A stretch of 64,000 nucleotides of DNA from an uncultured Alphaproteobacteria bacterium (GTDB lineage: Bacteria > Pseudomonadota > Alphaproteobacteria > HIMB59 > GCA-002718135): NCBI GenBank assembly GCA_902515745.1, contig CABXWB010000002.1, positions 6,515-70,514 of the forward strand, read 5' to 3'. The notes below the pieces were generated by a model. It saw only the letters and a list, made by a program, of their open reading frames with translations. It ran no database searches and was not told where the DNA came from. The position numbers and the translations under genes are program-made. Positions 16,124-43,603 of the stretch are shown in pieces (position 1 is the stretch's first letter; every line of letters starts with the position of its first letter).

Positions 16124-16166
16124 TTTTTCTTTACTTTTATATAAAACCTTGTAATTAACCAATAAT

Positions 16167-16214
16167 CGTTCAACTCTTTTAGAGTCGGAAGTAGGCATTG
16201 TGCCGAAGGAACGC
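16167..16214 (+). promoter_or_regulatory. Glutamine riboswitch aptamer (glnA RNA motif), copy 1
   Basis: CGTTCAACTCTTTTAGAGTCGGAAGTAGGCATTGTGCCGAAGGAACGC. Closing helix is CGUUC/GAACG and the first hairpin is ACUCU/AGAGU. The conserved UCGGAAGUAGG core is present, followed by hairpin GGCA/UGCC and GAAGGAACGC. Confidence 0.8.
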
Positions 16215-16231
16215 ATGCAAAAGTTATAAAT

Positions 16232-16282
16232 CGTTCAACCTATTATAATAGGTCGGAAGTAAGCCAAAAGCTGAAGGAACGC
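16232..16282 (+). promoter_or_regulatory. Glutamine riboswitch aptamer (glnA RNA motif), copy 2
   Basis: CGTTCAACCTATTATAATAGGTCGGAAGTAAGCCAAAAGCTGAAGGAACGCG. Same architecture as copy 1, with compensatory hairpins (ACCUAUU/AAUAGGU and AGC/GCU). It ends 88 nt upstream of the glnA ATG. Confidence 0.8.
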
Positions 16283-16369
16283 GCATCAAAAGCAGATTTC
16301 ATAACTAGAGCATGATTTAACCGGGTAACGCTGGATAGCATACCCTTTTGTTGAAGTAAGGAGATAGAT

Positions 16370-17800
16370 ATGAAATTAAAAAGCTCGACTCCAAAAGATT
16401 TAATGTCTGAAATTAAAGATATGGACATTAAGATGGTTGATATGCGCTTTACTGATATACCAGGAACAACTCAACATTTTACAATACCAATTAAATTTTT
16501 AGACGAAGATATATTTTCTGATGGACTTGGTTTTGATGGATCTTCAGTAAGAGGTTTCCAAGAAATTCAAGACAGTGATATGATTGTTTTGCCAGATGCA
16601 ACTACTGCATACATTGATCCATTTTTTTCAGAAAAAACTTTAGCATTGCATTGTAATATTAAAGATCCTGTAACTTTGGTTGATTATAGTCGTGACCCAA
16701 GAAATATTGCTAAAAAAGCTGAAGCCTATTTAAAATCATCTGGTATCGGCGACACAGCATTTTTTGGTCCAGAAGCAGAATTTTTTGTCTTTAATAATGT
16801 TCAGTTTGATTCGGGATCAAACTTTGCATTTCATGAAGTTGATTCTGTTGAAGGTACTTGGAATAGTGGCGCAGATGAAAATCCAAACCTAGGACATAAA
16901 CCTAGACATAAAGAAGGTTATTTTCCTTTACCACCAGTAGATACACTTCAAGATGTAAGAACTGAAATGGTAATGACCATGCAAGACATTGGTCTGACTG
17001 TTGAAGCACATCACCACGAAGTTGCAACAGGTGGACAGTGTGAAATTGATTTAGAATTTTCACCACTCTTGAAGATGGCTGATGATATGATGAAATATAA
17101 GTATGTTGTTAAAAATGTTGCGAGGCAACATGGAATGACTGCTACATTTATGCCTAAACCTTTATTTGAAGATAACGGTTCAGGTATGCACGTGCATCAA
17201 AGTGTTTGGAAAGACGGTGACACATTAATGTATAAAGAGGGTAACTATGCTAACCTAAGTGATTTAGCTCTAAATTATATTGGCGGTATACTTAAACATG
17301 CACCTGCTCTTTTAGCTTTTTGTGCTCCTACTACTAATTCTTATAAAAGATTGGTCCCAGGCTTTGAGGCTCCTGTGAACATTGTTTATTCTCAAAGAAA
17401 TAGAACTGCATCTGTGAGAATTCCTGCTTATTCTCAAAGCCCTAAGGCAAAAAGAATGGAATTTAGATGCCCAGATCCAAGTGCAAACCCATACTTAGCA
17501 TTCTCAGCAATGCTAATGGCAGGATTAGATGGAATTAAAAACAAAATTGATCCCGGTGATCCAACAGATATAAATCTCTACGCTGCTAGCGATGAAGTTT
17601 TGTCTAAAATTCAATCTACGCCTGGATCTTTAGCTGAATCTCTTGAAGCTCTTGAAAAAGATCATGCATTTTTATTAGAGGGTGATGTATTCACCAAAGA
17701 TGTAATTGAAACTTATATTGGCTATAAAAAAGAGAGTGAGGTTGACCCTATTAATATTAGACCTCATCCTCACGAGTTCAAATTATACTACGACGTATAG
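16370..17800 (+). CDS. glnA: Glutamine synthetase, type I
   Basis: 476 aa. Has [18 protein letters not shown] and [13 protein letters not shown], plus an NLY Tyr context near the C-terminus. SD AAGGAG lies 7 nt upstream. Confidence 0.97.
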
Positions 17801-32004: not shown

Positions 32005-32628
32005 TTAATATTTTTGTAATAAAACAATTTTAATTTTTATTTTGTTTTTAAAATCTTTATTCAATGGTAAATAATTTAAAGGTCTAGAAATTTTATTGAT
32101 TTTTAATGACTTTTGATGTTTTTTTAAAATACTTAAAAAATCCTGTTTCTCCCATAAATCTATTCTATGGGTAAATAGTACAAAGCCTTTTTCTTTAATA
32201 TTTTTATTAATATTAGCAAAAAATTTATCAAAGTCTTTGCAATACGTCATTGAGCCAATCAAAGAAATAAGATCAAATTTTATTTTATAATGATGTAATT
32301 GTTCAAAGTTTTTTATTTGCAATTTTTTGTAAATATTTTTTCCTGATGAAATTTTCAGGCTTTTTTTGGAAATATCTGAACCATAAATATGACTTTTTGG
32401 ATAAACTTTTTTTAATTCAGCGCCAAATAAGCCAGTTCCACATGCTAGGTCTAAGATATTTTTTGGTTTAAAATTATTTGTTTCTTTTAAAAATTTAATG
32501 CTCTTTTTAGGTGCTTGATAATTCCATAACTTCAGTGTTGTATCATAATTTTCTGACCAATCATCATAATATTTTGTTGTTTTACTCAAATTGCCAACGC
32601 CAGAAACTAATGATTTAAAATTACTCAT
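32005..32628 (-). CDS. Class I SAM-dependent methyltransferase
   Basis: 207 aa. Motif I ILDLACGTGLFG. Last gene of the 9-gene operon. Confidence 0.8.
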   Translation of the reverse strand: MSNFKSLVSGVGNLSKTTKYYDDWSENYDTTLKLWNYQAPKKSIKFLKETNNFKPKNILDLACGTGLFGAELKKVYPKSHIYGSDISKKSLKISSGKNIYKKLQIKNFEQLHHYKIKFDLISLIGSMTYCKDFDKFFANINKNIKEKGFVLFTHRIDLWEKQDFLSILKKHQKSLKINKISRPLNYLPLNKDFKNKIKIKIVLLQKY

Positions 32629-33427
32629 ATTTTAAAGAAGGAATTTTTTTTCTTATTTTATTTACATCAGAAATATTAATAGTTGAGTTAATAATTGCAG
32701 GTTTATTTTTGGTACTATTTATAATTTTCCCCCATGGATCTACTAAAAGAGAATATCCATAGGTCTTTCTTTTCATATGATGATTTCCACACATACCTGT
32801 TGCAACAATAAATACATTATTCTCTATAGCTCGTGATCTATTCAAAACCTCCCAATGATCTTTTCCAGTTGGTCTAGTAAAAGCAGCAGGAACTAAAATA
32901 ATTGAACAATCTTTTTTAGCAAGTTGCCTATACAAATTAGGAAATCGTAGATCATAACAAATTGTCATTCCTAATTTAATATTATTAATTTTTGTAAAAA
33001 TTATTTTATTACCAGCTTTGAACAAAGATGATTCCTTATGTCTTTCTTTGTTGTTAATTTCAACATCAAACATATGTATCTTATCATATGTTTTTTTTAT
33101 GACTCCATAATTGTTTATAAAAAAAGATCTATTAACCAATTTGGTTTTGTTCTTAATTCTTAAAACCAAAGAACCTAGATTTATATTTACTTTATTTTTC
33201 TTAGCAAAATCTTTTGCCATCTTCAAAACTGGGCAGGTATTTTGGTAGGGAGCATTTAAAATTAAATAACTTTTATCATTAGTAATGATATTTGAGCATT
33301 CTGGAGTGCATATTAAGTGAGGTTTAAATTTGATTGCCTTGTTAAAATTTTCTTCAAGAAGTTTAGAATTAAATTTCGGGAGATGACTTGCAGAAAATTG
33401 GACTTGAGATACTTTAAGCTTATTCAT
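32621..33427 (-). CDS. Carbon-nitrogen hydrolase (nitrilase/omega-amidase superfamily)
   Basis: 268 aa. Glu-Lys-Cys triad contexts CTPECS, YDKIHMFD and GMTICYDLRFP. Confidence 0.88.
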   Translation of the reverse strand: MNKLKVSQVQFSASHLPKFNSKLLEENFNKAIKFKPHLICTPECSNIITNDKSYLILNAPYQNTCPVLKMAKDFAKKNKVNINLGSLVLRIKNKTKLVNRSFFINNYGVIKKTYDKIHMFDVEINNKERHKESSLFKAGNKIIFTKINNIKLGMTICYDLRFPNLYRQLAKKDCSIILVPAAFTRPTGKDHWEVLNRSRAIENNVFIVATGMCGNHHMKRKTYGYSLLVDPWGKIINSTKNKPAIINSTINISDVNKIRKKIPSLKYE

Positions 33428-34584
33428 TTAAATTTTAGTAAGAAAACTAATCCAGAGGTAAACACTATAATACATAATAAATACATATTTAATGTAAGAG
33501 AATAAGCTTCAGCTAAAAATCCAATTAAAGCAGGCATAATCATTGTTGATGATAATCCAATTGTTATAAGGTTAGTTACAGTCATAGGAATACTTTCATT
33601 AGACTGTTTAACTGCCTGCCTAATAACAATAGGTACTAAATTAGCTATAGCAAATCCATAAAAGCTTAAAACAACCAGAATAATATAAAAATTATTGGTT
33701 AACAAAGCTAAAAGCATTATTGATGCACCAATCATCACAAAGTGGCAACCTACAACTTTTTCAGTAAATAAATTGATTAATGAATTAGAAAATAAATTAG
33801 CAAAAATAGCTCCAATACTAAAGAAAATTAAACCCATACTTGCCAGGTAAAGGGGCGCATTTAAATCTTTTGATAACCATAGTGTTGACCAATCCATTAT
33901 TATTCCACCGGAGCCAAAAACAAAAAATAATAAAAATCCAAATAATAGAACATTTGTTTCAGGTATTTTGAATTTTTCACCAACACCTTTAAAGTCTAAG
34001 TTACGTGGTAATCCAAATGAGAATACAAAAAAAGATATAAAGATTGATAAAAAAGACAAGATAGTAAAAAATACATAAGGCTCATAATTATATCTCATAA
34101 TTATTCCTGCTAATCCTCCTCCAATTAGGATACCTAAATTAAATCCCATCGCATAATATGGAGTAATTATTTTCTTAAAATGTTGTTCAATTAATTGAGT
34201 ATGTATTCCTCCTATAGGGCCAGATGCGCCCCAACCTATTCCAGCTGGTATCGATGTTAATAATAAATAAAAATACGAAGGAGACACAATTGAAAGTAAA
34301 GTAGAAAAAGTAGTAAGTGGAAAAGCCAAAGACATTATCAATTTTGTTCCATATTTTGGAACAAGTATTCTTCCAGCTATCTGGTTAGAGATGATGAAAA
34401 ATATTCCAAATAATAGTATGGCAAAGCTTAAATCAGACTCATCTATTGATAGTCTATTCATGTTCCATGGAGTTACACCAAAGTAGCAGCCAACTACTAT
34501 CATAGGATAAGTTGATGTAATTATTGAAGCAAGTGTTGCTCTTCTAAATATTTTTATTTCTTCTGACACAAAAATTTTTACCAA
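33424..34584 (-). CDS. MFS transporter
   Basis: 386 aa, about 12 TM in two 6-TM halves separated by a charged loop (RNLDFKGVGEKFK). Confidence 0.78.
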   Translation of the reverse strand: MVKIFVSEEIKIFRRATLASIITSTYPMIVVGCYFGVTPWNMNRLSIDESDLSFAILLFGIFFIISNQIAGRILVPKYGTKLIMSLAFPLTTFSTLLSIVSPSYFYLLLTSIPAGIGWGASGPIGGIHTQLIEQHFKKIITPYYAMGFNLGILIGGGLAGIIMRYNYEPYVFFTILSFLSIFISFFVFSFGLPRNLDFKGVGEKFKIPETNVLLFGFLLFFVFGSGGIIMDWSTLWLSKDLNAPLYLASMGLIFFSIGAIFANLFSNSLINLFTEKVVGCHFVMIGASIMLLALLTNNFYIILVVLSFYGFAIANLVPIVIRQAVKQSNESIPMTVTNLITIGLSSTMIMPALIGFLAEAYSLTLNMYLLCIIVFTSGLVFLLKFK

Positions 34585-35561
34585 CGATGATGAACATCAT
34601 CAAAAAAATATTTTGTGTAAACACTATTGATTTCATTCATTAAGGATGAAATTTCATTTAATTCTGAAGAAGAAGTATTCAAACCTACGTGATCTTTATT
34701 TTTAGCACCAGGAATAACAATACTAACTGCATCATGCATTAAAATCCATTTCAGTGACAATTGAGACAATGTAATCCCTTCTGGTAATATATTTTTTAAT
34801 TCATCAAGAGCTTCTAATGCTTTATTAAAATTTACCCCAGAAAATGTTTCACCTACATCAAACGCATCTCCATTAATATTGTAATTACGATGATCATCAG
34901 GAGCAAATGGCGAATCTTTATTGAACTTTCCAGTTAATAATCCACTTGCAAGGGGTACTCTCACAATAATTGCAACTTTTCTTTCTTTTGCAATTTTAAA
35001 TAATTTTTCAGCAGGTTTTTGTCTGAAAATATTGAATATAACCTGAATAGACTTTGTTTGAGGTTTTTTTATACATTCTAATGCTTGATCAACTGTTTCA
35101 ACGCTAAAACCATAATTTTGTATTTTTCCTTTACCTACTAAATAATCTAACATTTCAAAAGTATGATCTGATGAATAAACTTCTGTTGGAGGACAATGCA
35201 TTTGTAAAAGATCGATTGTTTCAATATTTAGATTTGATAATGATCGGTCTACAAATGACTCCATTAAATCTTTATCATAATAACCTTTTGCAACGTGTGG
35301 GTTAATACGTCTACCAGCTTTTGTTGCAACATAAATTCTCTCAGAAATAGAATTTATAAAATTTCCTACAAATTTTTCACTTCTACCATCACCATAAACA
35401 TCAGCTGTATCGAAAAAGTTAACTCCATTTTCAAATGATGATTTTAATACTTCATTTGCCTTCTCTTCACTAACATTTCCCCAATCAGCACCAATCTGCC
35501 AACAGCCTAAACCTATTTCCGATATATTCCAATCAAGGGAGCCAAATTTTCTATATTTCAT
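34578..35561 (-). CDS. Aldo/keto reductase
   Basis: 327 aa. Has FFDTADVYGDGRSE, the HCP motif (LQMHCPP), and IPGAKN. Confidence 0.9.
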   Translation of the reverse strand: MKYRKFGSLDWNISEIGLGCWQIGADWGNVSEEKANEVLKSSFENGVNFFDTADVYGDGRSEKFVGNFINSISERIYVATKAGRRINPHVAKGYYDKDLMESFVDRSLSNLNIETIDLLQMHCPPTEVYSSDHTFEMLDYLVGKGKIQNYGFSVETVDQALECIKKPQTKSIQVIFNIFRQKPAEKLFKIAKERKVAIIVRVPLASGLLTGKFNKDSPFAPDDHRNYNINGDAFDVGETFSGVNFNKALEALDELKNILPEGITLSQLSLKWILMHDAVSIVIPGAKNKDHVGLNTSSSELNEISSLMNEINSVYTKYFFDDVHHRW

Positions 35562-35564
35562 ATT

Positions 35565-37727
35565 TTAATTTAAGATTATCTGTTCTGTTACTAATGTCCC
35601 ATTATCAACAATTAAACCTGCTCCACCTTTTAAAAAGGGAGAGTCATTATCCTCAACTTCAATAATAACTTTATCATTAATGTGTCCAATAATTTTATTT
35701 TTTATTACTGTCATTTTTAAGTTATATTCTTTAAAAAATACTACTTCAAATTCTTCTTCTTTTAATATTTGATAATCATTATTCATCTTTCCAATACGTA
35801 ACTTATTCCCTTTGCAAATTTCAAATGTGTAGTATTTATTTACTCCTTGGACTCTTGATACTATTCCTCCAGAGTTACTAGACTGCAAAATAATATTTGA
35901 TGAAATTGAATAATTTCTCCATAAATCTGTTCCAGTAAATAAAATTCCTCTACCATTATTTTGGCAAATTCTAAAATTTTTACCTCTCTTTTCCCATTTG
36001 TCTAATGATTGAACCCATGCATTTCTCCAAATTTCACCATAGTAGCCCTCTTTTTTTTCTTTACCTCTTTGATAATTTTCTACGTGATCAGGTCTTTTAA
36101 ATATTTGTTTTGGCTCTCCTTCAAAATTAACATAATTAAGAATAACTTGACCTTCTTTTTTTTCTTCTGATGAGATATTAAAGCCAATTTGACCGATAGG
36201 ATTTGACTCAGTGTCAGGCAAAACCCATGATATTAGTTTTTTTTCATTTCCACTTAAATTAAAAATATTCGAAGAAATTTTTTGCAGTTTATCATTTTCA
36301 CCCCAATATTTAGAAAACAAGGTAATTGAAATTTCATGAGAAAATATATTTTCTATTTCTAAAGTTACTTTCTGACCTGGAAAAATAGTTGGGCAAGAAA
36401 TATAATCGTAATGAAAAAAATCATTTCTTTTTTTTCCTTTTAAATCTAAAATAATTTCAGGAAAAAATGTTTCTACATAAACTTCTGAAGTTAAATCTTC
36501 TGAAAGATTTTTATATGCAATTTTTAAACCTCTTTCACCTAATGTAGAATTGTATTCAACATTACTGATTTTTGTTTCACAAAACTTATTTCCAACTCTA
36601 GTTCGCCAACCTTGTGTTGAGTCTTTAATATTAAAATGAAATCTAGCTCCATTTTTAGGTAAATTTTCTTCTAAACCATTAATTTTTCTAGTTGTATTAA
36701 TAATTTTGAAAGTTTCTGTCAGTGCATCAGTTAGAGTTTCACCTCCCAATGCAGAGGGGCAATATAAAATATCATTTATAGGAGATAAGTAATCAGGACC
36801 TGATTTAAGTCCTTCTATTCCATTTTTAATTCCTAAAATACAACCAACATTTCCTGAATTACAATCTGTATCCCAACCTGCTGTATTCACAATCATCATA
36901 GTTTTTTGAAAATCATCATCTCCAAATAGTAAAGCCATAATAATTAAAGCATGATTGGGTACCATATGACAGTTACCTAAATATTTATCATATCCATAAT
37001 TCTCAGCAATTTTTTCTCTTGCTTGTTCCCAACCTAAATTTCCTGATCGCCATTCTTGTATGTCAGATATTAATCTAAATATTACTGAATTATCTGGGAT
37101 AAATTTTTTAGCTTGCTCAACTAACTTTGTTAGATCATTCTCGACAAAGGCCATTGACTCTAGAGCAGCTACAACTTGTGCACCATAAATTGCCTCTCCA
37201 TCATGACTAACACTTGCTGCAAGTTTAGCATAATGAACTGCTCTTTCTGGATCACCAGGTGCTACCATCGCCCAACCATCAATAAAAATTTGAGCCCCTA
37301 TTTGTTCAGCAATTACCTTACCATTAGTTTTAATTGAACCACTGTCAGGAGCATCGATACCCTGTTTTAAATTTTGAAAAGCTGTATCCTCTGCTGAGTG
37401 TCCTTTTCCACCCCACCAAAGTATAGTTTTATCCTCAATAATATTATTTAACCACGTTTTTCCTATATCTTTAGCAGTAATATTTTCGCTGTAATTGCAT
37501 TCTCTAAAAGCACGTAAAAAGGTAAATGTACCAGTAATGTCATCATCAGAGACAGGTAACGGGAAATCTAATTTCTCATTTACATAATAATTAATAGGTC
37601 CCAATTCCTTCATTATTCTTTCATAAGACCAACCTTCGAATGGACGTCCTAGAAATACTCCAATTATTTTACCCAATACACCTGCGTAAACTTTTTCCTC
37701 AAAATTTTTATCTAATTTAAAAGTCAT
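35565..37727 (-). CDS. ADP-ribosylglycohydrolase-family protein fused to C-terminal beta-sandwich (lectin/LamG-like) region
   Basis: 720 aa. The N-terminal ~330 aa carry ARH motifs (VSDDDITGTF and AGWDTDCNSGNVGCILG). The C-terminal ~390 aa are beta-rich and end in GGAGLIVDNGTL, which looks like concanavalin/LamG-type jelly rolls. Shares 1 nt with the upstream permease gene. Confidence 0.8.
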   Translation of the reverse strand: MTFKLDKNFEEKVYAGVLGKIIGVFLGRPFEGWSYERIMKELGPINYYVNEKLDFPLPVSDDDITGTFTFLRAFRECNYSENITAKDIGKTWLNNIIEDKTILWWGGKGHSAEDTAFQNLKQGIDAPDSGSIKTNGKVIAEQIGAQIFIDGWAMVAPGDPERAVHYAKLAASVSHDGEAIYGAQVVAALESMAFVENDLTKLVEQAKKFIPDNSVIFRLISDIQEWRSGNLGWEQAREKIAENYGYDKYLGNCHMVPNHALIIMALLFGDDDFQKTMMIVNTAGWDTDCNSGNVGCILGIKNGIEGLKSGPDYLSPINDILYCPSALGGETLTDALTETFKIINTTRKINGLEENLPKNGARFHFNIKDSTQGWRTRVGNKFCETKISNVEYNSTLGERGLKIAYKNLSEDLTSEVYVETFFPEIILDLKGKKRNDFFHYDYISCPTIFPGQKVTLEIENIFSHEISITLFSKYWGENDKLQKISSNIFNLSGNEKKLISWVLPDTESNPIGQIGFNISSEEKKEGQVILNYVNFEGEPKQIFKRPDHVENYQRGKEKKEGYYGEIWRNAWVQSLDKWEKRGKNFRICQNNGRGILFTGTDLWRNYSISSNIILQSSNSGGIVSRVQGVNKYYTFEICKGNKLRIGKMNNDYQILKEEEFEVVFFKEYNLKMTVIKNKIIGHINDKVIIEVEDNDSPFLKGGAGLIVDNGTLVTEQIILN

Positions 37728-38563
37728 TATTCTTTTAAGCCTCCACTTGTTAGTCCTGAAATAAACCTTCTTTGAAACAACATAAATAAGATAGCTATTG
37801 GTGCTACCATCATGATTGCAGCTGCACTTTGTAAAGCATAATTATTTTCAAATCTAGCTTGAAAAGAAAAGAGAATTGTTGCCATTGGTTTAAAATTTGG
37901 ATCAGTTATAAAGGTAAGAGCAAATAAAAACTCATTCCAAACAGCTAAACCAATTATTAATCCAGCAGTTAAAATTACAGGCCAAGATAAAGGAAGGGCA
38001 ATTCTAAAAAAAATTTGAAAAGTATTTGCTCCATCAAGTTTTGCCGCATCAAATAATTCATCTGGTAACCTAATCATATAAGATCTTATTAAGAATGTTG
38101 CGAAAGGTGCATTCAAAGCTGAATATATGATAATTAAACCAATATGCGTGTTTAACAAACTTAATTCCTTCCATAAAAGAAAAAGAGGAAGAATATAAAG
38201 TTGAGCAGGTATACTAATTCCTACTAATAAATATATGGCTATGACGGTTGACCCTTTTGGATTTAATTTAGCTAAACTGAAACCTGCTAATAAAGAAACA
38301 GCTAAGCATAATATTACTGAGCCAAAAACTAGTTTTGATGAATTAAAAAAAATTTTTGTATATTCTCCAGCAATCCATGCATCTGGAAAATTTTGTAACC
38401 TAACTTCTGATGGTGGTCCAAGAGGATTTAGACCAAATTCACTAAAAGGTTTTATTGAATTAAAAAATAAAACTAAAATTGGTAATACAGCCAAAAGTGC
38501 AAACAATATTAATATAAAATGATTTGGTATTGCTTCTTTTCTTCTAAAATTAGAAACTAACAT
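37727..38563 (-). CDS. Carbohydrate ABC transporter permease (MalG type)
   Basis: 278 aa, 6 TM. EAA loop DELFDAAKLDGANTFQIFFRIALP. Confidence 0.9.
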   Translation of the reverse strand: MLVSNFRRKEAIPNHFILILFALLAVLPILVLFFNSIKPFSEFGLNPLGPPSEVRLQNFPDAWIAGEYTKIFFNSSKLVFGSVILCLAVSLLAGFSLAKLNPKGSTVIAIYLLVGISIPAQLYILPLFLLWKELSLLNTHIGLIIIYSALNAPFATFLIRSYMIRLPDELFDAAKLDGANTFQIFFRIALPLSWPVILTAGLIIGLAVWNEFLFALTFITDPNFKPMATILFSFQARFENNYALQSAAAIMMVAPIAILFMLFQRRFISGLTSGGLKE

Positions 38564-39439
38564 TTATATTTCCCATCCTAATCTTCTTAATAACCCAAAA
38601 ATACCTACAATAAATATGACATAGAAAAACATTAACGTACCAACTGCAGATGCGTATCCAACGTTAAATCTAACAAATGCATGAGTATAGAGATAATTAG
38701 CAACTACTTCAGAGCTATAAGCTGGTCCACCTCCTGTAAGTATGTAAACATAGTCAAAAACAGGAACTGACCAAATGATAATGATCATAAGACTAAAGAT
38801 AAATATAGGTCTAATCATTGGTAAGGTGATATATCTAAATTTTTGAAACTTGCTTGCACCTTCAATATCTGCAGCTTCATATAAGTGGTTATCAACCTGG
38901 TACATACCTGTTAAATAGATTACAACTAAAAAGCCCCAAAAGTGCCAACCATCTACAAAAGCTGCTGCATAAAGGGATGTATCTTTTGTTGTAAAAGGTG
39001 ATGATGCTAAAGCTTCAATTCCAATTGATTCAAAAAAACCACCTAGCCCGTGAATAGGATGAAAAAGATATTTCCAAATTTGGCAATTAACAACACTTGC
39101 AAGCATGTAAGGGAAAAAAAATGCTAAACGGTAAAACATCTGTCCACGTTTTATACCCGTTAGTAAGTATGCACACATAAGTGCAATACAAACTGGCACA
39201 GTTAAAAAAATAATTGTCCATAATATATTATGAAAGATAGCTTTCTTAAAATATCTATCATCAAACAATTCAATAAAATTCTCAAAACCAACATAATTTA
39301 TTTTGCCTAAACCACTCCAATCTGTAAGACATAAAGCAAGACTTAAGATCGATGGGATTCCAATAACAAAAAGATGAATAAATACTACGGGTATAACAAA
39401 GTACCAAGCTATGTAACTTTTATTTGATAAAAAATTCAT
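38564..39439 (-). CDS. Carbohydrate ABC transporter permease (MalF type)
   Basis: 291 aa, 6 TM. EAA loop HLYEAADIEGASKFQKFRYITLP. Confidence 0.9.
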   Translation of the reverse strand: MNFLSNKSYIAWYFVIPVVFIHLFVIGIPSILSLALCLTDWSGLGKINYVGFENFIELFDDRYFKKAIFHNILWTIIFLTVPVCIALMCAYLLTGIKRGQMFYRLAFFFPYMLASVVNCQIWKYLFHPIHGLGGFFESIGIEALASSPFTTKDTSLYAAAFVDGWHFWGFLVVIYLTGMYQVDNHLYEAADIEGASKFQKFRYITLPMIRPIFIFSLMIIIIWSVPVFDYVYILTGGGPAYSSEVVANYLYTHAFVRFNVGYASAVGTLMFFYVIFIVGIFGLLRRLGWEI

Positions 39440-39462
39440 TATACTTCCGAAATAATTGTTGG

Positions 39463-39490
39463 AAAAACGAAGCTCAACGAGCTTCGTTTT
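39463..39490 (-). terminator. Intra-operon terminator/attenuator hairpin after the binding-protein gene
   Basis: The minus-strand RNA is AAAACGAAGCUC-GUU-GAGCUUCGUUUUU. It sits between the SBP stop (39501) and the permease start (39439). Confidence 0.55.
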
Positions 39491-39500
39491 ATATTTTATA

Positions 39501-40829
39501 CTAGTCTCTTAATGGAACAGGCAAAGTTTCATTTTTCTTTCTAGCCTTATCCCACATTTTTTGATGGTCAGTCATAAAGTCTTCAACTGATATATCACCA
39601 GCCCATACTACTTCCATATCTTTCCAGATATGAACTCCAGGTTCTGCTGGCCAGAAAGTCCATGTACAATATCCGTAGTTTCCTTCACCAGTAATTCTAG
39701 CATATTCATTTAAATAGCTTGTTACTTGAGGTGAGATTGAGCTTGGAATATCACTTTCATCAAGAAGAAGTGGTACAACAAATTCTCCGAATTCAAAGTC
39801 ACTAGCTATATCGATTACTACATCTTTATTGGACATAATCCAGTTTAAGACGTCAATTGCTCCATCTTTATTTTTTGCGGCAGCATTAACAGACATTGTT
39901 GTGCCGATAGCAATCATAAAGTTTGGACCTGTAGAATTAGAGGATAATGATGGTAAAGGAGCCCATCCCCATTCATCATCAGATGCTCCAATTCCTAGAC
40001 TTGTAGCTTGAAAAGTCCAAGTTCCTATTGTCATCATAGCTGCTCCACGAGTAGCAAACTGTGCATGGAAATCATCCCATCCAATAGCGTAGTAGTTTTC
40101 TAAACTACCAGACCACCAACCTTCATTAACCATATGTTTTTTAAGAAGTTCTAAAGCTTCTATAAAAACTGGATCAGTCCATTCTCTTTCGCCAGTAATA
40201 GCTTCATAGACTGCTTCTGGTCCTGCATAGTTATTAAGATAAATACCTACTAAATGTTCATGTGTCGGTTGCCATCCTGATGAACCATATGTGTATACGT
40301 CCATCCCTTTAGCTTTGATCTTTGCTGCTACATCTTCTAATTCTTCACGAGTAGTTGGAACTGTCCAACCATTTTCTTCAAAAAGAGTTTTATTGTAAAG
40401 CATTACCATTGATTCATGTGTTTTAGGAATTGCATATAAGCTGCCTTCAAAAACTCCTGAACTATACGCCCAAGGAATCAATTTATCTTTCCATCCAAAT
40501 TCTGCAGCATAGGAATCAAGATTCTCTAACATACCTGCTTCTTGATATTCTTTAACATAAGAAGGGCCAGGGGTTTCTACGATGTCTGGACCCATACCAG
40601 CTAACATAGAAGTTCTAAGTGATTCAATTCTTGTTTCGTTTGGCTCAAATTGTATTTCTAATTCATAATTATCTTGAGCACTGTTGTATGCATTTTGTAA
40701 TTTTTCTAAAAATATAGGATCTCTATCAGCATTTGATTCCATTGACCAAGTAACCTTGGTTTTAGAGAATGCAGAAAAAGATACAGATAAAACTATTGAA
40801 GTTACAAAACTTATTATGGTTTTATTCAT
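39501..40829 (-). CDS. Extracellular solute-binding protein, carbohydrate ABC (CUT1) family
   Basis: The ORF is open to 40874, but the ATG at 40829 (MNKTIISFVTSIVLSVSFSAFS signal peptide) follows a strong SD, TGGAGGAATT. The SBP family-1 pattern runs throughout. Confidence 0.88.
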   Translation of the reverse strand: MNKTIISFVTSIVLSVSFSAFSKTKVTWSMESNADRDPIFLEKLQNAYNSAQDNYELEIQFEPNETRIESLRTSMLAGMGPDIVETPGPSYVKEYQEAGMLENLDSYAAEFGWKDKLIPWAYSSGVFEGSLYAIPKTHESMVMLYNKTLFEENGWTVPTTREELEDVAAKIKAKGMDVYTYGSSGWQPTHEHLVGIYLNNYAGPEAVYEAITGEREWTDPVFIEALELLKKHMVNEGWWSGSLENYYAIGWDDFHAQFATRGAAMMTIGTWTFQATSLGIGASDDEWGWAPLPSLSSNSTGPNFMIAIGTTMSVNAAAKNKDGAIDVLNWIMSNKDVVIDIASDFEFGEFVVPLLLDESDIPSSISPQVTSYLNEYARITGEGNYGYCTWTFWPAEPGVHIWKDMEVVWAGDISVEDFMTDHQKMWDKARKKNETLPVPLRD

Positions 40830-40992
40830 AATTCCTCCATTTAATAACCACTTCTTAAAGGAAATATAGATCACTTCAAGTTGATATCTAAAAGTGTGTC
40901 AAAATACGGCTAAACAAACAAATAAATTCTATTTTTATAAGTTAAATTTAATAGTATTAATTTTAAAAAGTATTAAGTATCTTTTAATTATT

Positions 40993-41781
40993 ATGAAAAA
41001 TAATCTCTTTGATATATGGGCTAAAAATGAAGCATCTATAAATGCTTGGTTATCGATACCAAATTCTTTTACTGCTGAAGCCTTTGGTAAAATGGGTTGG
41101 GATTCAGTTACTATTGATATGCAGCATGGTCAAAATGACTATTCTACTGCTATAGCAATGGTGCAGGGATTATCGAATAGCAATACTGTTCCTATGACAA
41201 GAGTTCCATGGAACGAGCCAGGTATAATTATGAAAATGTTAGATTTAGGTGTTCAAGGAATTATTGCCCCAATGATTAATACTAAAGAGGATTGTGAAAA
41301 ATTTGTTTCATATTGCTATTATCCTCCAATAGGTCAAAGAAGTTTTGGTCCAATGAGGGCTCAAGTAGTTTATGGTTCAGATTATTATCAGCACGCAAAT
41401 GATAATATTGTAAGTATGGCAATGATCGAAACGAAACAAGCAGTTGAAAATTTGGATGCTATTCTTTCAGTTCCTCATTTAACTGGTATCTATATTGGGC
41501 CGGCGGATATGAGTTCTTCTTATGGTTTGCCACCTAAATTTGATGTACGTGAAGATCCAGTATTTTCAAACATTAAAATGATTGCAAAGAAAGCAAAAGA
41601 AAAAGGAAAGATTGCAGGTATTCATAATGGATCAGTTAAGTATATGAAAGAAATGATGAAGTACGGTTTTCAATTTACCACCTTACTTTCTGATTTTAGA
41701 ATGATGACATCACATGCTGAAAGTTTATTAAAAGAATTGAAAGATGTAGATACTAAATCTGATAATACTAGCGCATATTAA
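40993..41781 (+). CDS. HpcH/HpaI-family aldolase
   Basis: WLSIPNSFTAEAFGKMGWDSVTIDMQHG, ETKQAVENLDAI and IGPADMS fit class II 2-keto-3-deoxy-acid aldolases. The ORF is open from 40894, but MKNNLFDIW at 40993 fits the family length (~260 aa). Confidence 0.85.
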   Translation: MKNNLFDIWAKNEASINAWLSIPNSFTAEAFGKMGWDSVTIDMQHGQNDYSTAIAMVQGLSNSNTVPMTRVPWNEPGIIMKMLDLGVQGIIAPMINTKEDCEKFVSYCYYPPIGQRSFGPMRAQVVYGSDYYQHANDNIVSMAMIETKQAVENLDAILSVPHLTGIYIGPADMSSSYGLPPKFDVREDPVFSNIKMIAKKAKEKGKIAGIHNGSVKYMKEMMKYGFQFTTLLSDFRMMTSHAESLLKELKDVDTKSDNTSAY

Positions 41782-41788
41782 TTGTCGC

Positions 41789-43603
41789 TTAATTACTAAC
41801 TAAATCCTCTTCCATTTTAATTAATTCAAACCATCTATTTTCTTTTGTATTGAGATCACTATTAAGAACTTCCATTTTGGAAGTTATTTCTTGATAGCGT
41901 TCAAAATTTTCCAAATATAGGTTTGTATCCTTCAATTCATTTTTAATATCTTCTAATTCTTGTTGAATTTTTTTTATTTGGTTTGGTAATTGCTCTAATT
42001 CATATTGAAACTTATATGATAGTTTAGCTTTAGAATTTTTTACTTTGTTATTTTCTGAATATGATTTTTTTGTTTCCTTATTTTTAGTAACTTGTTGATT
42101 TTCGGATTTCAAAAAATCACTGTATCCACCAAAAAATAATGATACATTCCCATCCTCTTTGAAATGTAGAATTTTATTTACAGTTTGATCTAAAAAATCT
42201 CGATCATGCGATACTATTAATAACGTTCCATTATAATTTGATAACATTTCAGTTAACAGATCTAGTGTTTCTAAATCTAGATCATTTGTTGGCTCATCTA
42301 AAATAAGTCCAGTCTTTGGATTAGCTAATACTTTTGCTAAAAGTAATCTATTTTGCTCTCCTCCTGATAATGTTTGTATCGTATGATTGACATTTTTAGG
42401 ATCAAACTGAAAATCTTTCACATAGCTACAGACATGCCTATCTCTTCCCTGAACTTTTAAATAGTCTCCTCCAGAGGGAACTAAAATATCTTTAATAGAT
42501 TTTCTGCCATTAAGATCATTACGCATCTGATCAAAATAAGAAAATTCTAAATTTTTTTTGAGCTTGATTTTACCTTTAGAAATTTTTATTTCATTAAGGA
42601 TTGTTCGAAGAAAAGTTGATTTACCACTTCCATTATTTCCTAACAAACCGATACGATCATTTTTTGAAATTTTTATTGAGAGATTTTTAAAAATAAATTC
42701 ACTTTGATTTGGATATTTCACAAACACTTCTTGAAGTTCAGCAATAAATTTAGATTGATCAGTAGATTTTTTAGATACTTGCGGTCTTAAAGATTTAATT
42801 GCACTTCTATAAGAAGCTTCATCTTTTTCTAATTGCGCTTTTAATTCTTTCGCTCTTTTTAATCTTTTTTCATTCCTCTTTACACGAGCTTTAACGCCTT
42901 TATTTGCCCACTCAAGTTCAATATTAACAAATTGCTTTCTATTTCTTAATTCTCTATATTCTTGATCTAGTAACTCCTCTGACCATTTATCAAAATCTTT
43001 AAATCCTCTAGGACTTACTCGTAATTTTCCCCTATCTATCCAAAATACTTTATTGGTAAAATTACTTAAAAAAGTTCTATCATGGCTCACACATATAATT
43101 GTTTTATTTAAATTGCGTAAGTAACTTTCTAGCCATTCGATGCATTGCAAATCTAGATGATTGGTTGGCTCATCTAATAACAAAACATCGGAGTCCTTTA
43201 ATAAAGATCGAATTAAATAAACTTTTCTTTTTTGCCCTCCTGAAAGATCTTCAACATTAGCAAATTTGTCTAAATTTAGTTTATTGCAAAATATATCAAC
43301 AAAATGTTTATTTTGTTCGTTAAGTAAATCTGAAAAATTCTCTTCAATGGTTTTGTTATCTAGTTTTTCAAATTTCTGATTAAAATATCCAACTTTTAGA
43401 TTTGGATAATTCCATAATTCTCCCGCATCTAAATCTTGATCACCATTTATAGTTTTCATAAGTGTTGTTTTGCCAACACCATTTTTACCAACAAGCGCAA
43501 TCATATCACCCTTGTGTAAATTTAAGTTTAGATCTTGGAAAATAACTTTTTTGCCAAATTTGATTTCTACATCTCTTAGAGAAAATAATAAATCACTAGC
43601 CAC
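41789..43603 (-). CDS. ABC-F family ATPase (Uup/YheS-like)
   Basis: 604 aa. Two ABC cassettes (GKNGVGKTT and GNNGSGKST; two LSGG(Q/E) signatures). No TM domain. C-terminal coiled-coil tail. Confidence 0.92.
   Translation of the reverse strand: MASDLLFSLRDVEIKFGKKVIFQDLNLNLHKGDMIALVGKNGVGKTTLMKTINGDQDLDAGELWNYPNLKVGYFNQKFEKLDNKTIEENFSDLLNEQNKHFVDIFCNKLNLDKFANVEDLSGGQKRKVYLIRSLLKDSDVLLLDEPTNHLDLQCIEWLESYLRNLNKTIICVSHDRTFLSNFTNKVFWIDRGKLRVSPRGFKDFDKWSEELLDQEYRELRNRKQFVNIELEWANKGVKARVKRNEKRLKRAKELKAQLEKDEASYRSAIKSLRPQVSKKSTDQSKFIAELQEVFVKYPNQSEFIFKNLSIKISKNDRIGLLGNNGSGKSTFLRTILNEIKISKGKIKLKKNLEFSYFDQMRNDLNGRKSIKDILVPSGGDYLKVQGRDRHVCSYVKDFQFDPKNVNHTIQTLSGGEQNRLLLAKVLANPKTGLILDEPTNDLDLETLDLLTEMLSNYNGTLLIVSHDRDFLDQTVNKILHFKEDGNVSLFFGGYSDFLKSENQQVTKNKETKKSYSENNKVKNSKAKLSYKFQYELEQLPNQIKKIQQELEDIKNELKDTNLYLENFERYQEITSKMEVLNSDLNTKENRWFELIKMEEDLVSN

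What the first reader, a model, noticed from the sequence alone, without database searches (positions are those of the whole stretch)
32005..41781. Nine-gene, regulator-less operon pairing a CUT1 sugar ABC importer with an ADP-ribosylglycohydrolase-family enzyme
On the minus strand the genes follow one another with gaps of 0-3 nt or overlaps of 1-8 nt. The only larger gap is the 61-nt hairpin-containing spacer after the SBP gene. The order is:
1. SBP (40829-39501)
2. attenuator hairpin
3. MalF-type permease
4. MalG-type permease
5. 720-aa ARH-family fusion
6. aldo/keto reductase
7. MFS transporter
8. C-N hydrolase (omega-amidase type)
9. SAM methyltransferase

An HpcH-type aldolase gene is divergent from this operon.

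I do not recognise this combination as a characterised sugar pathway. ARH-family enzymes cleave ribosyl or glycosidic N- or O-linkages. The downstream reductase, amidase and methyltransferase suggest processing of an N-containing aglycone or a ribosylated metabolite. The locus is a candidate uptake and catabolic system for an unidentified dissolved organic compound.
Basis: inference. Interest (0 to 1): 0.65.

Follow-up and report, generated by a model that had tools for sequence, protein, structure and literature searches.

The report
Sugar importer with ARH-type riboside hydrolase
A SAR11-type ocean bacterium carries a six-gene (not nine-gene) module that pairs a sugar-type ABC importer with an uncharacterised 720-residue ADP-ribosylglycohydrolase-fold enzyme; the same pairing recurs from marine to soil bacteria, several times next to ribose-salvage genes, so it most likely imports an unidentified ribose-containing compound and cuts the ribose off.

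Summary

- **Spacing is uninformative.** Tight spacing is the genome norm: 21 of 44 same-strand pairs have gaps of 3 nt or less.
- **Core module.** In 89 related loci, only SBP–MalF–MalG–ARH travel together across phyla.
  - Outside SAR11 they usually come with a LacI regulator and a MalK ATPase, both absent from this window.
  - The AKR and the MFS are recurrent partners in marine alphaproteobacteria. An AKR 52% identical sits beside LacI–ARH in an Anaerolineae genome.
- **Backbone genes.** The CN-hydrolase (Nit1/Nit2-like), the methyltransferase and HpcH are SAR11 backbone genes. In L016 and L017 they sit together without the module, and they never accompany ARH elsewhere.
- **The enzyme.** It has an ARH domain with invariant metal-site motifs plus two β-sandwiches; the last resembles CBM66.
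- **Ribose link.** In independent lineages the gene sits with ribokinase, RbsD or IU-nucleoside hydrolase, so a riboside substrate is most likely.
- **Variation in SAR11.** The cassette is mosaic and carries 1–4 tandem ARH paralogs.

No characterised member was found.

The parts
40830..40992 (-). Divergent intergenic region between the SBP and HpcH genes. It contains the GGAGG ribosome-binding site and a promoter-like block (AACTTGAAGTGAT...TAAGAA) about 20-50 nt upstream of the SBP ATG.
   Evidence: Sequence read. The block is conserved across several cassette alleles. The promoter scan as a whole is not above shuffled background, so the promoter assignment is an inference.
39501..40829 (-). 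Periplasmic solute-binding protein (CUT1 / SBP_bac_1 type), 442 aa with a signal-peptide-like N-terminus.
   Evidence: Pfam PF01547, E 3.6e-26. The nearest solved relatives bind di- or oligosaccharides (BxlE 3vxb 8e-22; NagB1), not the SAR11 glucose binder. Orthologues at 33-51% identity accompany ARH across phyla.
39459..39490 (-). Intercistronic stem-loop (12-bp stem, 3-nt loop, then a T-run) in the 61-nt SBP-MalF spacer. Likely a partial terminator or mRNA stabiliser that gives an excess of SBP.
   Evidence: The structure is conserved with different stem sequences in nearly all variants.
38564..39439 (-). MalF/UgpA-type ABC permease.
   Evidence: Pfam PF00528. NCBIfam best hits are GlcT, UgpA and MalF. 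Co-conserved with ARH.
37727..38563 (-). MalG/UgpE-type ABC permease.
   Evidence: Pfam PF00528, E 1.5e-20. NCBIfam best hits are GlcU, UgpE and MalG. Co-conserved with ARH.
35565..37727 (-). Cytoplasmic 720-aa enzyme. ARH-fold catalytic domain (about residues 1-350), a middle beta-sandwich (about 375-545) and a CBM66-like beta-sandwich (about 570-720). Predicted metal-dependent ribofuranosidase.
   Evidence: Pfam PF03747, E 9.5e-52. AlphaFold model with pLDDT 79.9. Foldseek hits to ARH3 6g1p, 2cwc and CBM66 4azz/4b1m (TM 0.8, rmsd 2.0). The family profile hits CBM66 at E 5e-5. Catalytic motifs are invariant across phyla.
34578..35561 (-). Aldo/keto reductase (AKR11/IolS-like), a recurrent partner of the ARH gene.
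   Evidence: Pfam PF00248, E 4e-61. Best PDB hit is IolS. It follows ARH in SAR11 and in other marine alphaproteobacteria with different flanks (L019, L020, L022, L023). A 52%-identical full-length orthologue sits beside LacI-ARH in an Anaerolineae genome (L079).
33424..34584 (-). 12-TM MFS transporter of unknown specificity. Either a second uptake route or an exporter of a hydrolysis product.
   Evidence: Pfam PF07690. Follows ARH or AKR in L019 and L022 (60-63% identity), and a 39%-identical version travels with the relocated module in L016 and L017. It is kept with ARH-AKR in L012, where the ABC genes are deleted. It is absent outside marine alphaproteobacteria.
32621..33427 (-). Not part of the module: Nit1/Nit2-type CN-hydrolase. 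It is a backbone gene that overlaps the MFS stop by 4 nt and may be read through.
   Evidence: NCBIfam best hit is deaminated-glutathione amidase, below the cutoff. PDB best hits are NitFhit, Nit3 and Nit2. It is contiguous with HpcH, without the module, in L016 and L017. It occurs in 0 of 28 non-SAR11 loci.
32005..32628 (-). Not part of the module: class I SAM methyltransferase, a backbone gene paired with the CN-hydrolase.
   Evidence: Pfam methyltransferase domains. It stays with the CN-hydrolase in L016 and L017. It occurs in 0 of 28 non-SAR11 loci.
40993..41781 (+). Not part of the module: HpcH/HpaI-type aldolase. It is a backbone gene that marks one edge of the variable cassette.
   Evidence: Pfam PF03328. 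It is 83-97% identical in SAR11 loci whatever the cassette type, and it is next to the CN-hydrolase in L016 and L017. It occurs in 0 of 28 non-SAR11 loci.

Best explanation
The functional unit is a six-gene module, SBP - hairpin - MalF - MalG - ARH fusion - AKR - MFS (33424-40829, minus strand). It is inserted into a conserved SAR11 backbone between the HpcH gene and a CN-hydrolase/methyltransferase pair.

Proposed mechanism:
1. The periplasmic SBP captures a small, neutral, roughly disaccharide-sized glycoside that contains a ribofuranosyl group.
2. The two permeases import it, powered by a MalK-type ATPase encoded elsewhere.
3. The cytoplasmic ARH-fold enzyme uses its two-metal site to hydrolyse the ribosyl linkage and release D-ribose plus an aglycone. 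Its two beta-sandwich domains help bind the carbohydrate-like substrate.
4. The AKR reduces a carbonyl-bearing product.
5. The MFS gives either a second uptake route or an exit for a product.
6. The stem-loop after the SBP gene sets a high SBP-to-permease ratio.

What is shown: the gene families, the fold, conservation of the active site, co-conservation of the module, its cassette behaviour and its link to ribose-salvage genes. What is inferred: the substrate class, the direction of MFS transport, the AKR substrate and the transcript structure.
For: **Co-conservation**
- SBP-MalF-MalG-ARH are adjacent in SAR11 and in other groups. Among 28 non-SAR11 loci, the cognate SBP is present in 13, permeases in 16, LacI in 18-19 and MalK in 7.
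- The complete LacI-SBP-F-G-ARH-MalK unit occurs on Rhizobium megaplasmids and in SAR116.

**Ribose link**
- True ribokinases lie right beside the ARH fusion in L069, L072 and L085. Their TIGR02152 scores are 356, 336 and 374 bits against a cutoff of 299.65.
- PfkB plus RbsD occur in L085 and L088.
- IU-nucleoside hydrolase occurs in L069, L085 and L086.
- A nucleoside:H+-symporter-type MFS occurs in L086.
- Bacteroidetes ribose-utilisation loci likewise combine ribokinase, nucleoside hydrolase and ADP-ribosylglycohydrolase genes (bioRxiv 10.1101/574913).

**Enzyme**
- Pfam ARH match, E 9.5e-52.
- The motifs TDDD[IL]TGTF, SVSHDGE and GWDTDCNSGNVGC are invariant from SAR11 to Deinococcus and Enterobacter at only 42-50% overall identity.
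- The fold matches ARH3, and the C-terminal domain matches CBM66.
- There is no signal peptide (sequence).

**AKR**
- A 52%-identical orthologue sits next to LacI-ARH in Anaerolineae.

**Hairpin**
- The structure is conserved while the stem sequence changes.
Against: - No ribokinase, RbsD or nucleoside hydrolase is in the SAR11 module or in the window.
- Ribose-salvage genes flank the ARH fusion in only about 5 of 32 non-SAR11 loci. Other loci show GH130, GH31, GH38, UxaC or ROK neighbours, which point to other sugars.
- No importer ATPase is in the window.
- The nearest solved SBPs bind xylobiose or chitobiose rather than ribosides.
- The CBM66 prototype binds fructofuranose, not ribose (established knowledge; hit).
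- No biochemical data exist for any family member.
- The ARH domain region 98-137 is modelled with low confidence.
Confidence: 0.55

Rival explanations
1. The module architecture is the same, but the ARH-fold enzyme is a glycosidase for a sugar linkage that is not ribose. Candidates are another furanoside such as a fructofuranoside or arabinofuranoside, or a hexoside. On this view the ribokinase neighbours in a few lineages reflect lineage-specific substrates.
For: The C-terminal domain resembles the fructan-binding CBM66 and the GALC lectin domain. The nearest solved SBPs bind xylobiose and chitobiose. Some loci have GH130, GH31, GH38, UxaC or ROK neighbours. SAR11 carries three deep paralog clades and up to four tandem copies, which suggests several specificities.
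Against: The catalytic-site motifs are almost invariant across all lineages and paralogs, which argues for one chemistry on one sugar moiety. All characterised ARH-family enzymes act at ribose C1'' (established knowledge). The only sugar-specific salvage genes that repeatedly sit immediately beside the gene are for ribose.
Confidence: 0.25
2. One reading: all nine genes form one catabolic pathway. In it, ARH releases an N-containing aglycone that is then processed by the reductase, the CN-hydrolase (amidase) and the methyltransferase.
For: All the genes are on the same strand with overlapping or abutting reading frames. The CN-hydrolase start overlaps the MFS stop by 4 nt, and no terminator-like site was found between them. 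In L020 a CN-hydrolase at 58% identity again follows ARH-AKR.
Against: In L016 and L017 the CN-hydrolase and methyltransferase sit directly beside HpcH with no module, and the module is elsewhere. Neither gene accompanies ARH in any of 28 non-SAR11 loci. The CN-hydrolase is of the Nit1/Nit2 housekeeping type. Tight spacing is the genome norm.
Confidence: 0.07
3. The ARH fusion is a protein or nucleic-acid de-ADP-ribosylating enzyme with a regulatory or anti-toxin/defence role, and it lies next to a sugar transporter by chance.
For: Canonical ARH-family members (DraG, ARH1, ARH3, Tri1) remove ADP-ribose from macromolecules (established knowledge). The metal-site motifs are intact.
Against: Adjacency to a cognate CUT1 transporter and a LacI regulator is conserved across at least six phyla. 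There is no PADLOC defence hit. No ADP-ribosyltransferase partner was seen in any of the neighbourhoods examined. The CBM-like domains and ribokinase/RbsD neighbours indicate free sugar metabolism.
Confidence: 0.04

Closest known systems
CUT1-family ABC sugar importers (MalEFGK2 / UgpBAEC type) with LacI-regulated cytoplasmic glycosidase operons
   Same: An SBP_bac_1 binding protein and two BPD_transp_1 permeases in SBP-F-G order, an intercistronic hairpin after the SBP gene, and a single cytoplasmic hydrolase encoded next to the transporter. Relatives add LacI and a MalK/UgpC-type ATPase with TOBE domains.
   Different: The hydrolase is not a CAZy-type glycoside hydrolase but an ARH-fold enzyme. 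The SAR11 version has lost both the regulator and the ATPase gene from the locus. The SBP is only distantly related to any characterised binder (best E 8e-22).
ADP-ribosylglycohydrolase family (Pfam PF03747: DraG, ARH1, ARH3, T. thermophilus 2cwc, M. jannaschii MJ1187)
   Same: A strong Pfam match, the helical ARH fold (Foldseek hits to ARH3 6g1p and to 2cwc) and conserved acidic/Thr metal-site motifs.
   Different: It has about 370 extra C-terminal residues that form two beta-sandwich, CBM-like domains. It is too divergent for phmmer to find any solved ARH. Its genomic context is catabolic (transporter, LacI, ribokinase) rather than regulatory. The predicted substrate is an imported small molecule, not an ADP-ribosylated macromolecule.
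Ribose utilisation systems (Rus) of Bacteroidetes (Glowacki et al., bioRxiv 10.1101/574913)
   Same: The loci combine ribokinase(s), nucleoside hydrolase, ADP-ribosylglycohydrolase genes and often a LacI regulator to scavenge ribose from unidentified ribosides. L069, L085 and L088 here have the same gene logic.
   Different: Rus loci use SusC/D outer-membrane uptake and a permease, not a CUT1 ABC system. Whether the Bacteroidetes ARH genes have the same two-beta-sandwich fusion was not tested. The SAR11 module has no ribokinase.
E. coli yegTUV (MFS nucleoside-type transporter, ARH-family YegU, PfkB kinase YegV). Recalled from memory and not tested here.
   Same: A transporter, an ARH-family protein and a PfkB sugar kinase in one cluster. 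This is analogous to ARH-AKR-MFS in L012 and to the ARH plus Nuc_H_symport MFS in L086.
   Different: YegU is a short, single-domain ARH. The window MFS is unrelated to the nucleoside-symporter-type MFS of L086. The function of yegTUV is also not established, to my knowledge.
SAR11 glucose ABC transporter (SBP SAR11_0769; Clifton et al. 2024, PMC11485210)
   Same: The only sugar-type ABC SBP characterised in that study of SAR11. It also has a patchy, ecotype-dependent distribution.
   Different: The window SBP has no close match to any solved SBP, and SAR11_0769 has a crystal structure; the best hit is BxlE at E 8e-22. It is therefore a different transporter with an unknown ligand.

Membership tests
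ADP-ribosylglycohydrolase family (PF03747) | Sequence match to the family HMM above the curated threshold | tested here: met
   176.9 bits against a gathering score of 26.2, covering residues 16-308 and profile positions 2-285 of 287.
ADP-ribosylglycohydrolase family (PF03747) | All-helical ARH fold | tested here: met
   The AlphaFold model is helical over residues 1-350. Foldseek hits are ARH3 6g1p (E 2.8e-6, TMt 0.63) and T. thermophilus 2cwc (E 1e-5, TMt 0.57).
ADP-ribosylglycohydrolase family (PF03747) | Binuclear metal site formed by N-terminal D-D-T-type and C-terminal D-x-D-T/S-type motifs | tested here: inconclusive
   The motifs TDDDITGT (D61-D63, T65) and GWDTDCN (D286, T287, D288) are present and invariant in 33 and 22 family members. 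Their equivalence to the ARH3 and DraG ligands rests on my recollection of those motifs, not on a residue-level structural superposition.
ADP-ribosylglycohydrolase family (PF03747) | Hydrolysis of an ADP-ribosyl (ribose C1'') linkage | not testable with these tools
   This needs an enzyme assay. The ribokinase and RbsD context suggests that free ribose, not ADP-ribose, is the product.
CUT1 ABC importer | Family-1 extracellular solute-binding protein | tested here: met
   PF01547, 93.3 bits. There are 458 solved CUT1-type SBP relatives.
CUT1 ABC importer | Two MalF/MalG-type permease subunits | tested here: met
   PF00528 in both proteins. NCBIfam best hits are GlcT/UgpA/MalF and GlcU/UgpE/MalG.
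CUT1 ABC importer | MalK/UgpC-type ATPase with a C-terminal TOBE/OB domain | tested here: not met
   There is none in the cluster or in the 64-kb window. The only hit is the ABC-F protein at 24% identity. One is present next to ARH in 7 of 28 non-SAR11 loci. It may be supplied in trans; the rest of the genome could not be searched.
   But this is also true of about half of all same-strand gene pairs in the window.
   The CN-hydrolase, MT and HpcH are separated from the module in L016 and L017, and they are absent from all 28 non-SAR11 loci.
   No RNA data are available. Read-through from the MFS gene into the CN-hydrolase gene cannot be excluded, because the two overlap by 4 nt and no terminator-like site lies between them.
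Ribose utilisation system | Ribokinase encoded in the locus | tested here: not met
   Absent from the window. Present beside the ARH fusion in L069, L072 and L085, with a PfkB plus RbsD pair in L088.
CBM66-like carbohydrate-binding module (C-terminal domain) | Beta-sandwich fold and sequence similarity to B. subtilis SacC CBM66 | tested here: met
   The family profile hits 4b1m at E 5.2e-5 over positions 597-716. Foldseek gives TMt 0.79-0.83 and rmsd 2.0-2.1 Å. Conservation of the ligand-binding residues was not examined.

The most novel reading that the evidence does not exclude
ARH-fold enzymes fused to two CBM-like domains are a large class of catabolic 'ribofuranosidases' that has never been assayed. 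They are coupled to dedicated CUT1 importers, and bacteria from SAR11 to rhizobia, Chloroflexi and Enterobacter use them to harvest a still-unidentified family of ribosylated small molecules. In SAR11 populations the system diversifies by cassette swapping and tandem duplication (1-4 paralogs), which implies a pool of several related ribosides in marine dissolved organic matter that nobody has measured.
Probability: 0.4. Interest if true: 0.7.

Novelty: new variant of a known kind. Interest (0 to 1): 0.5.

Why it matters
SAR11 cells dominate the surface ocean, and their few transporters largely define which dissolved organic compounds are turned over. This module is a second sugar-type ABC system in SAR11, with an unknown ligand. 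It is tied to an enzyme family with more than 7,700 sequence clusters in public data, none with a known substrate.

Identifying the ligand would do three things:
- add a new compound class to the marine carbon budget;
- give the first catabolic, small-molecule function to the ARH fold;
- explain why natural SAR11 populations keep several divergent cassette alleles and up to four tandem paralogs at one locus.

The finding is also a caution: in streamlined genomes, overlapping reading frames do not delimit pathways.

Tried and rejected
1. **Identity with the known SAR11 glucose transporter operon (SAR11_0769).** Rejected. The window SBP has no close solved relative.
2. **A defence or toxin-antitoxin role for the ARH.** There is no PADLOC hit and no transferase partner (and the neighbourhood calls).
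3. **Sequence search of the whole ARH fusion against PDB.** phmmer found nothing. Only a family profile found CBM66, plus a marginal hit to MJ1187.
4. **Literature searches.** Searches for ARH plus SAR11, ABC transporter, riboside, glycoside hydrolase, ribokinase or LacI found no paper that characterises this protein. The only SAR11 mention is the poorly syntenic SAR11_1227 in HTCC1062.
5. **Promoter scan.** The number of hits equals the shuffled expectation in this AT-rich DNA (62 against 60.3), so it says nothing about internal promoters.
6. **MFS relationship.** The window MFS shows no significant similarity to the nucleoside-symporter-type MFS of L086, and it has no PDB or informative NCBIfam match.
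7. **The C-terminal module as an independent unit.** The 490-577-aa hits turned out to be truncated ARH fusions. Whether the ~380-aa forms are stand-alone proteins was left unresolved.
8. **Plasmid records for Rhizobium.** They carry no annotation, so the genes were labelled by BLAST against my own reference set.

Full report
**1. Observation**

The window has about 29% G+C. Its closest relatives are single-cell genomes labelled 'uncultured Alphaproteobacteria' or Pelagibacteraceae, so it comes from a SAR11-type genome.

- methyltransferase, 32005-32628
- CN-hydrolase, 32621-33427
- MFS, 33424-34584
- aldo/keto reductase, 34578-35561
- a 720-aa protein with an ADP-ribosylglycohydrolase (ARH) domain at residues 16-308, 35565-37727
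- two BPD_transp_1 permeases, 37727-38563 and 38564-39439
- a family-1 solute-binding protein, 39501-40829
- a divergent HpcH/HpaI aldolase

Other details of the observation:
- The SBP ATG at 40829 has a GGAGG site and a signal-peptide-like N-terminus.
- The most likely HpcH start is the ATG at 40993, which gives 262 aa as in relatives.
- The junctions are overlaps of 8, 4, 7 and 1 nt and gaps of 3 and 0 nt, plus one 61-nt spacer.
- The spacer holds a 12-bp stem-loop at 39464-39490 followed by a T-run.
- There is no regulator in the cluster. The neighbouring 604-aa ABC protein is a two-domain ABC-F protein.

**2. Is the spacing meaningful?**

No, not by itself. The window is 93.5% coding. The median same-strand gap is 5 nt, and 21 of 44 same-strand pairs have gaps of 3 nt or less. 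Whether the genes form a functional unit has to be judged by co-conservation.

**3. Co-conservation**

A scan of one genome per species with a family alignment returned 72 loci. tblastn of every window protein against them and ORF labelling gave these results.

- **SBP-MalF-MalG-ARH recur together.** They are adjacent in SAR11, in other marine alphaproteobacteria, in SAR116 (L062), in a Rhodobacteraceae SAG (L055), in Chloroflexi (L063, L071), in Bacillota (L065) and in an uncultured bacterium (L069).
- **The flanking genes evolve separately from the cassette.** Within SAR11 the flanking genes (arsenic-efflux-like permease, MT, CN-hydrolase, MFS, AKR on one side; HpcH and ABC-F on the other) are typically about 75-99% identical to the window. 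This holds even where ARH is only 55-57% and the SBP only 52% identical. The cassette SBP-F-G-ARH is therefore a variable module in a conserved frame.
- **The cassette is mosaic.** L010 has SBP/F/G at 98-100% identity but ARH at 83%. L001 has ARH at 95% but SBP/F/G at 81-84%.
- **Some variants carry tandem ARH-fusion genes.** L026 and L041 carry two, and L031 carries four. They fall into at least three deep clades that are 51-57% identical to each other.
- **One variant has a regulator.** In L026 a GntR/UTRA regulator lies between HpcH and the SBP gene.
- **L016 and L017 show the backbone without the module.** Their backbone runs arsenic-efflux - small ORF - MT - CN-hydrolase | HpcH - ABC-F with nothing in between. 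A module SBP-F-G-ARH-MFS (MFS 39% identical, no AKR) sits three genes away in the opposite orientation. The CN-hydrolase, MT and HpcH are therefore backbone genes.
- **L012 has lost SBP-F-G but keeps ARH-AKR-MFS next to HpcH**.
- **AKR and MFS follow ARH in other contexts.** In marine alphaproteobacteria with different flanks, ARH is followed by AKR (72-76% identical; L019, L020, L022, L023) and then by the MFS (60-63% identical; L019, L022).

**4. Outside SAR11**

Pfam and NCBIfam labelling of neighbours, plasmid records and twelve neighbourhood look-ups were combined. The tally over the first 28 non-SAR11 loci is:

| Gene near the ARH fusion | Loci (of 28) |
|---|---|
| LacI | 18 (plus one truncated) |
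| Cognate SBP | 13 |
| Permeases | 16 |
| MalK-type ATPase | 7 |
| Short single-domain ARH | 4 |
| Ribokinase | 3 |
| IU-nucleoside hydrolase | 2 |
| RbsD | 1 |
| AKR | 2 |
| MFS, CN-hydrolase, MT, HpcH | 0 each |

- Rhizobium megaplasmids and SAR116 carry the complete unit LacI-SBP-F-G-ARH-MalK, with ARH as the only enzyme.
- Enterobacter hormaechei has LacI-ARH-SBP.
- The AKR beside LacI-ARH in an Anaerolineae genome (L079) is 52% identical to the window AKR over all 327 residues. This is more than the ARH proteins of these lineages share, so the AKR is a true recurrent partner.

**5. The ribose link**

- The gene immediately after the ARH fusion in L069 and L072 is a ribokinase that scores above NCBIfam's curated cutoff: TIGR02152, 356 and 336 bits against 299.65.
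- L085 reads LacI - ribokinase (374 bits) - RbsD - SBP - F - G - short ARH - IU-nucleoside hydrolase - ARH fusion.
- L088 reads LacI - PfkB - RbsD ... ARH.
- L086 reads LacI - IU-nucleoside hydrolase - ARH, with a nucleoside:H+-symporter-type MFS nearby.
- L069 also has an IU-nucleoside hydrolase and a distant AKR.
- This gene logic matches the ribose-utilisation systems of Bacteroidetes. Those combine ribokinases, nucleoside hydrolases and ADP-ribosylglycohydrolases, and their natural substrates are also unknown (bioRxiv 10.1101/574913).
- The link is not universal. Other loci show GH130, GH31, GH38, UxaC or ROK neighbours.

**6. The enzyme**

- AlphaFold2 with a 33-sequence alignment gave pLDDT 79.9 and pTM 0.82. 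The model has a helical domain (about 1-350) and two beta-sandwiches (about 375-545 and 570-720). Residues 98-137 are poorly modelled.
- Foldseek against PDB matches the N-terminal domain to ARH3 and to the T. thermophilus ARH-like protein. It matches the C-terminal domain to CBM66 of B. subtilis levanase (TM 0.8, rmsd 2.0 Å) and to the galactocerebrosidase lectin domain. The tandem sandwiches match CBM22 and galectin tandems.
- A family profile hits CBM66 by sequence at E 5e-5. Some relatives hit Pfam GH59_C.
- The motifs LGRPFE, TDDD[IL]TGTF, AEQIGAQIFIDGW, SVSHDGE, PNHA and GWDTDCNSGNVGC are almost invariant in 22 fusion proteins. These range from SAR11 to Rhizobium, Enterobacter, Deinococcus, Bacillota and Chloroflexi, at 42-50% overall identity, and include all SAR11 paralogs.
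- The acidic/Thr motifs look like the two-metal site of canonical ARHs. This mapping comes from my knowledge of ARH3 and DraG and was not superposed here.
- There is no signal peptide, so the enzyme acts in the cytoplasm.
- The family is very large. A first search scored 7,894 of 8,000 candidate clusters at E of 0.001 or better, and a second scored 7,793 of 8,000 at E of 1e-50 or better. Every source names it only 'ADP-ribosylglycohydrolase (family protein)'.
- The C-terminal half on its own finds 708 representative clusters. All six longer hits I checked (509-790 aa) carry an ARH domain, four of them truncated.

**7. The other proteins**

- **SBP.** It is not the glucose-binding SAR11_0769 type characterised by Clifton et al. 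(PMC11485210). Its best solved relatives are the xylobiose binder BxlE (8e-22) and chitooligosaccharide binders, which suggests a ligand of about disaccharide size.
- **AKR.** It is closest to B. subtilis IolS and YhdN.
- **MFS.** It has no informative relative.
- **CN-hydrolase.** It is of the Nit1/Nit2/Nit3 type, and its best NCBIfam model is deaminated-glutathione amidase, below the cutoff. This fits a housekeeping metabolite-repair or omega-amidase role.
- **Defence systems.** PADLOC finds no defence-system link for the ARH, AKR, MFS or CN-hydrolase.

**8. Regulatory features**

- The stem-loop after the SBP gene is present in nearly every cassette variant. The stem sequences are unrelated (ACGAAGCTC, CAGTGAAGCTT, GCGAGGC, AAGGGGAA, AGAGCCG and others), including in SAR116, Rhodobacteraceae, Bacillota and L069. 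The structure, not the sequence, is conserved, as expected for an intercistronic attenuator or stabiliser that raises SBP output.
- Upstream of the SBP gene, a promoter-like block is shared by several alleles.
- The generic promoter scan is uninformative in this AT-rich DNA.
- Rfam finds nothing in the cluster.

**9. Conclusion**

The functional unit is six genes, SBP, MalF, MalG, ARH fusion, AKR and MFS, and not nine. It is a streamlined SAR11 version of a widespread LacI-controlled 'import and hydrolyse' module: it has no LacI and no MalK.

The most likely mechanism is uptake of a small ribofuranosyl-containing glycoside and metal-dependent release of ribose by the ARH-fold enzyme (confidence about 0.55). 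The main rival is a different sugar linkage (about 0.25). The identity of the substrate, the roles of the AKR and the MFS, the source of the ATPase and the transcript structure remain inferences.

I found no published characterisation. The only SAR11 mention is that the HTCC1062 ARH gene SAR11_1227 is poorly syntenic in metagenomes (PMC2217521). That agrees with the cassette behaviour seen here and with the flexible-island, paralog-rich picture of SAR11 pangenomes (PMC11796062).

Noticed in passing
window 16165-16217 and 16230-16285 (+): Two tandem glutamine riboswitch aptamers (Rfam RF01739, 64-65 bits, well above the gathering score of 35) lie upstream of the 476-aa ORF at 16370-17800.
   Followed up: no
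L031 5586-14341; L026 9995-14342; L041 7446-11788: Some SAR11 genomes carry two to four tandem ~720-aa ARH-fusion paralogs behind a single ABC transporter. They fall into at least three deep clades (51-57% identity between clades), and all have intact catalytic motifs.
   Followed up: partly
L012 9134-14304: In one SAR11 genome the SBP and both permease genes are missing, but ARH-AKR-MFS remain directly next to HpcH. This hints that the MFS can serve as an alternative uptake route, or that the module is decaying.
   Followed up: partly
L044 (NYXO01000061.1, 'Methanobacteriota archaeon ARS96'): A contig binned as an archaeon carries an AKR 90% identical and a MalG 70% identical to the SAR11 window genes. 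It is most likely a mis-binned SAR11 contig.
   Followed up: no
L041 13936-14743: The CN-hydrolase gene is split into two ORFs (147 + 115 aa) in this single-cell genome. This is either a frameshift or pseudogene, or an assembly error.
   Followed up: no
L074 (CP103578.1, Enterobacter hormaechei 'plasmid' pMB8072_1): The LacI-ARH-SBP trio sits between chiP/chiQ and glnS-nagE-nagBA, among core chromosomal genes (fur, fldA, seqA, pgm), in a record labelled as a 517-kb plasmid. Only an SBP, with no permease genes, accompanies the ARH there.
   Followed up: no
window 40942-40966: An AT-rich near-perfect palindrome (TTAAATTTAATA / TATTAATTTTAA) lies in the HpcH/SBP divergent spacer. A 'TACTATTAAA' block about 100 nt upstream of the SBP start is shared by several cassette alleles. 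It could be an operator or the HpcH promoter, or chance in AT-rich DNA.
   Followed up: partly
L063 8796-9929; L071 8495-9919; L082 6749-7930; L085 5877-6974: In Chloroflexi-type loci and some others, a second, short (365-474 aa), divergent single-domain ARH gene sits just upstream of the fusion gene. It lies between MalG and the fusion in L063, L071 and L082; in L085 an IU-nucleoside hydrolase gene intervenes. This suggests two sequential ribosyl-bond cleavages.
   Followed up: no
P0251, P0253, P0256, P0257, P0261, P0264 (representative library): Several ~376-387-aa proteins match the whole C-terminal double beta-sandwich from about residue 33 onward. The two I scanned (P0251, P0253) have no Pfam domain. 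It is unresolved whether they are stand-alone proteins or truncated gene calls.
   Followed up: partly
window 41789-43603 (-): A 604-aa ABC-F type protein (two ABC_tran domains plus ABC_tran_CTD) lies next to the locus. It could be mistaken for the importer's missing ATPase, but it is not of the MalK type.
   Followed up: yes
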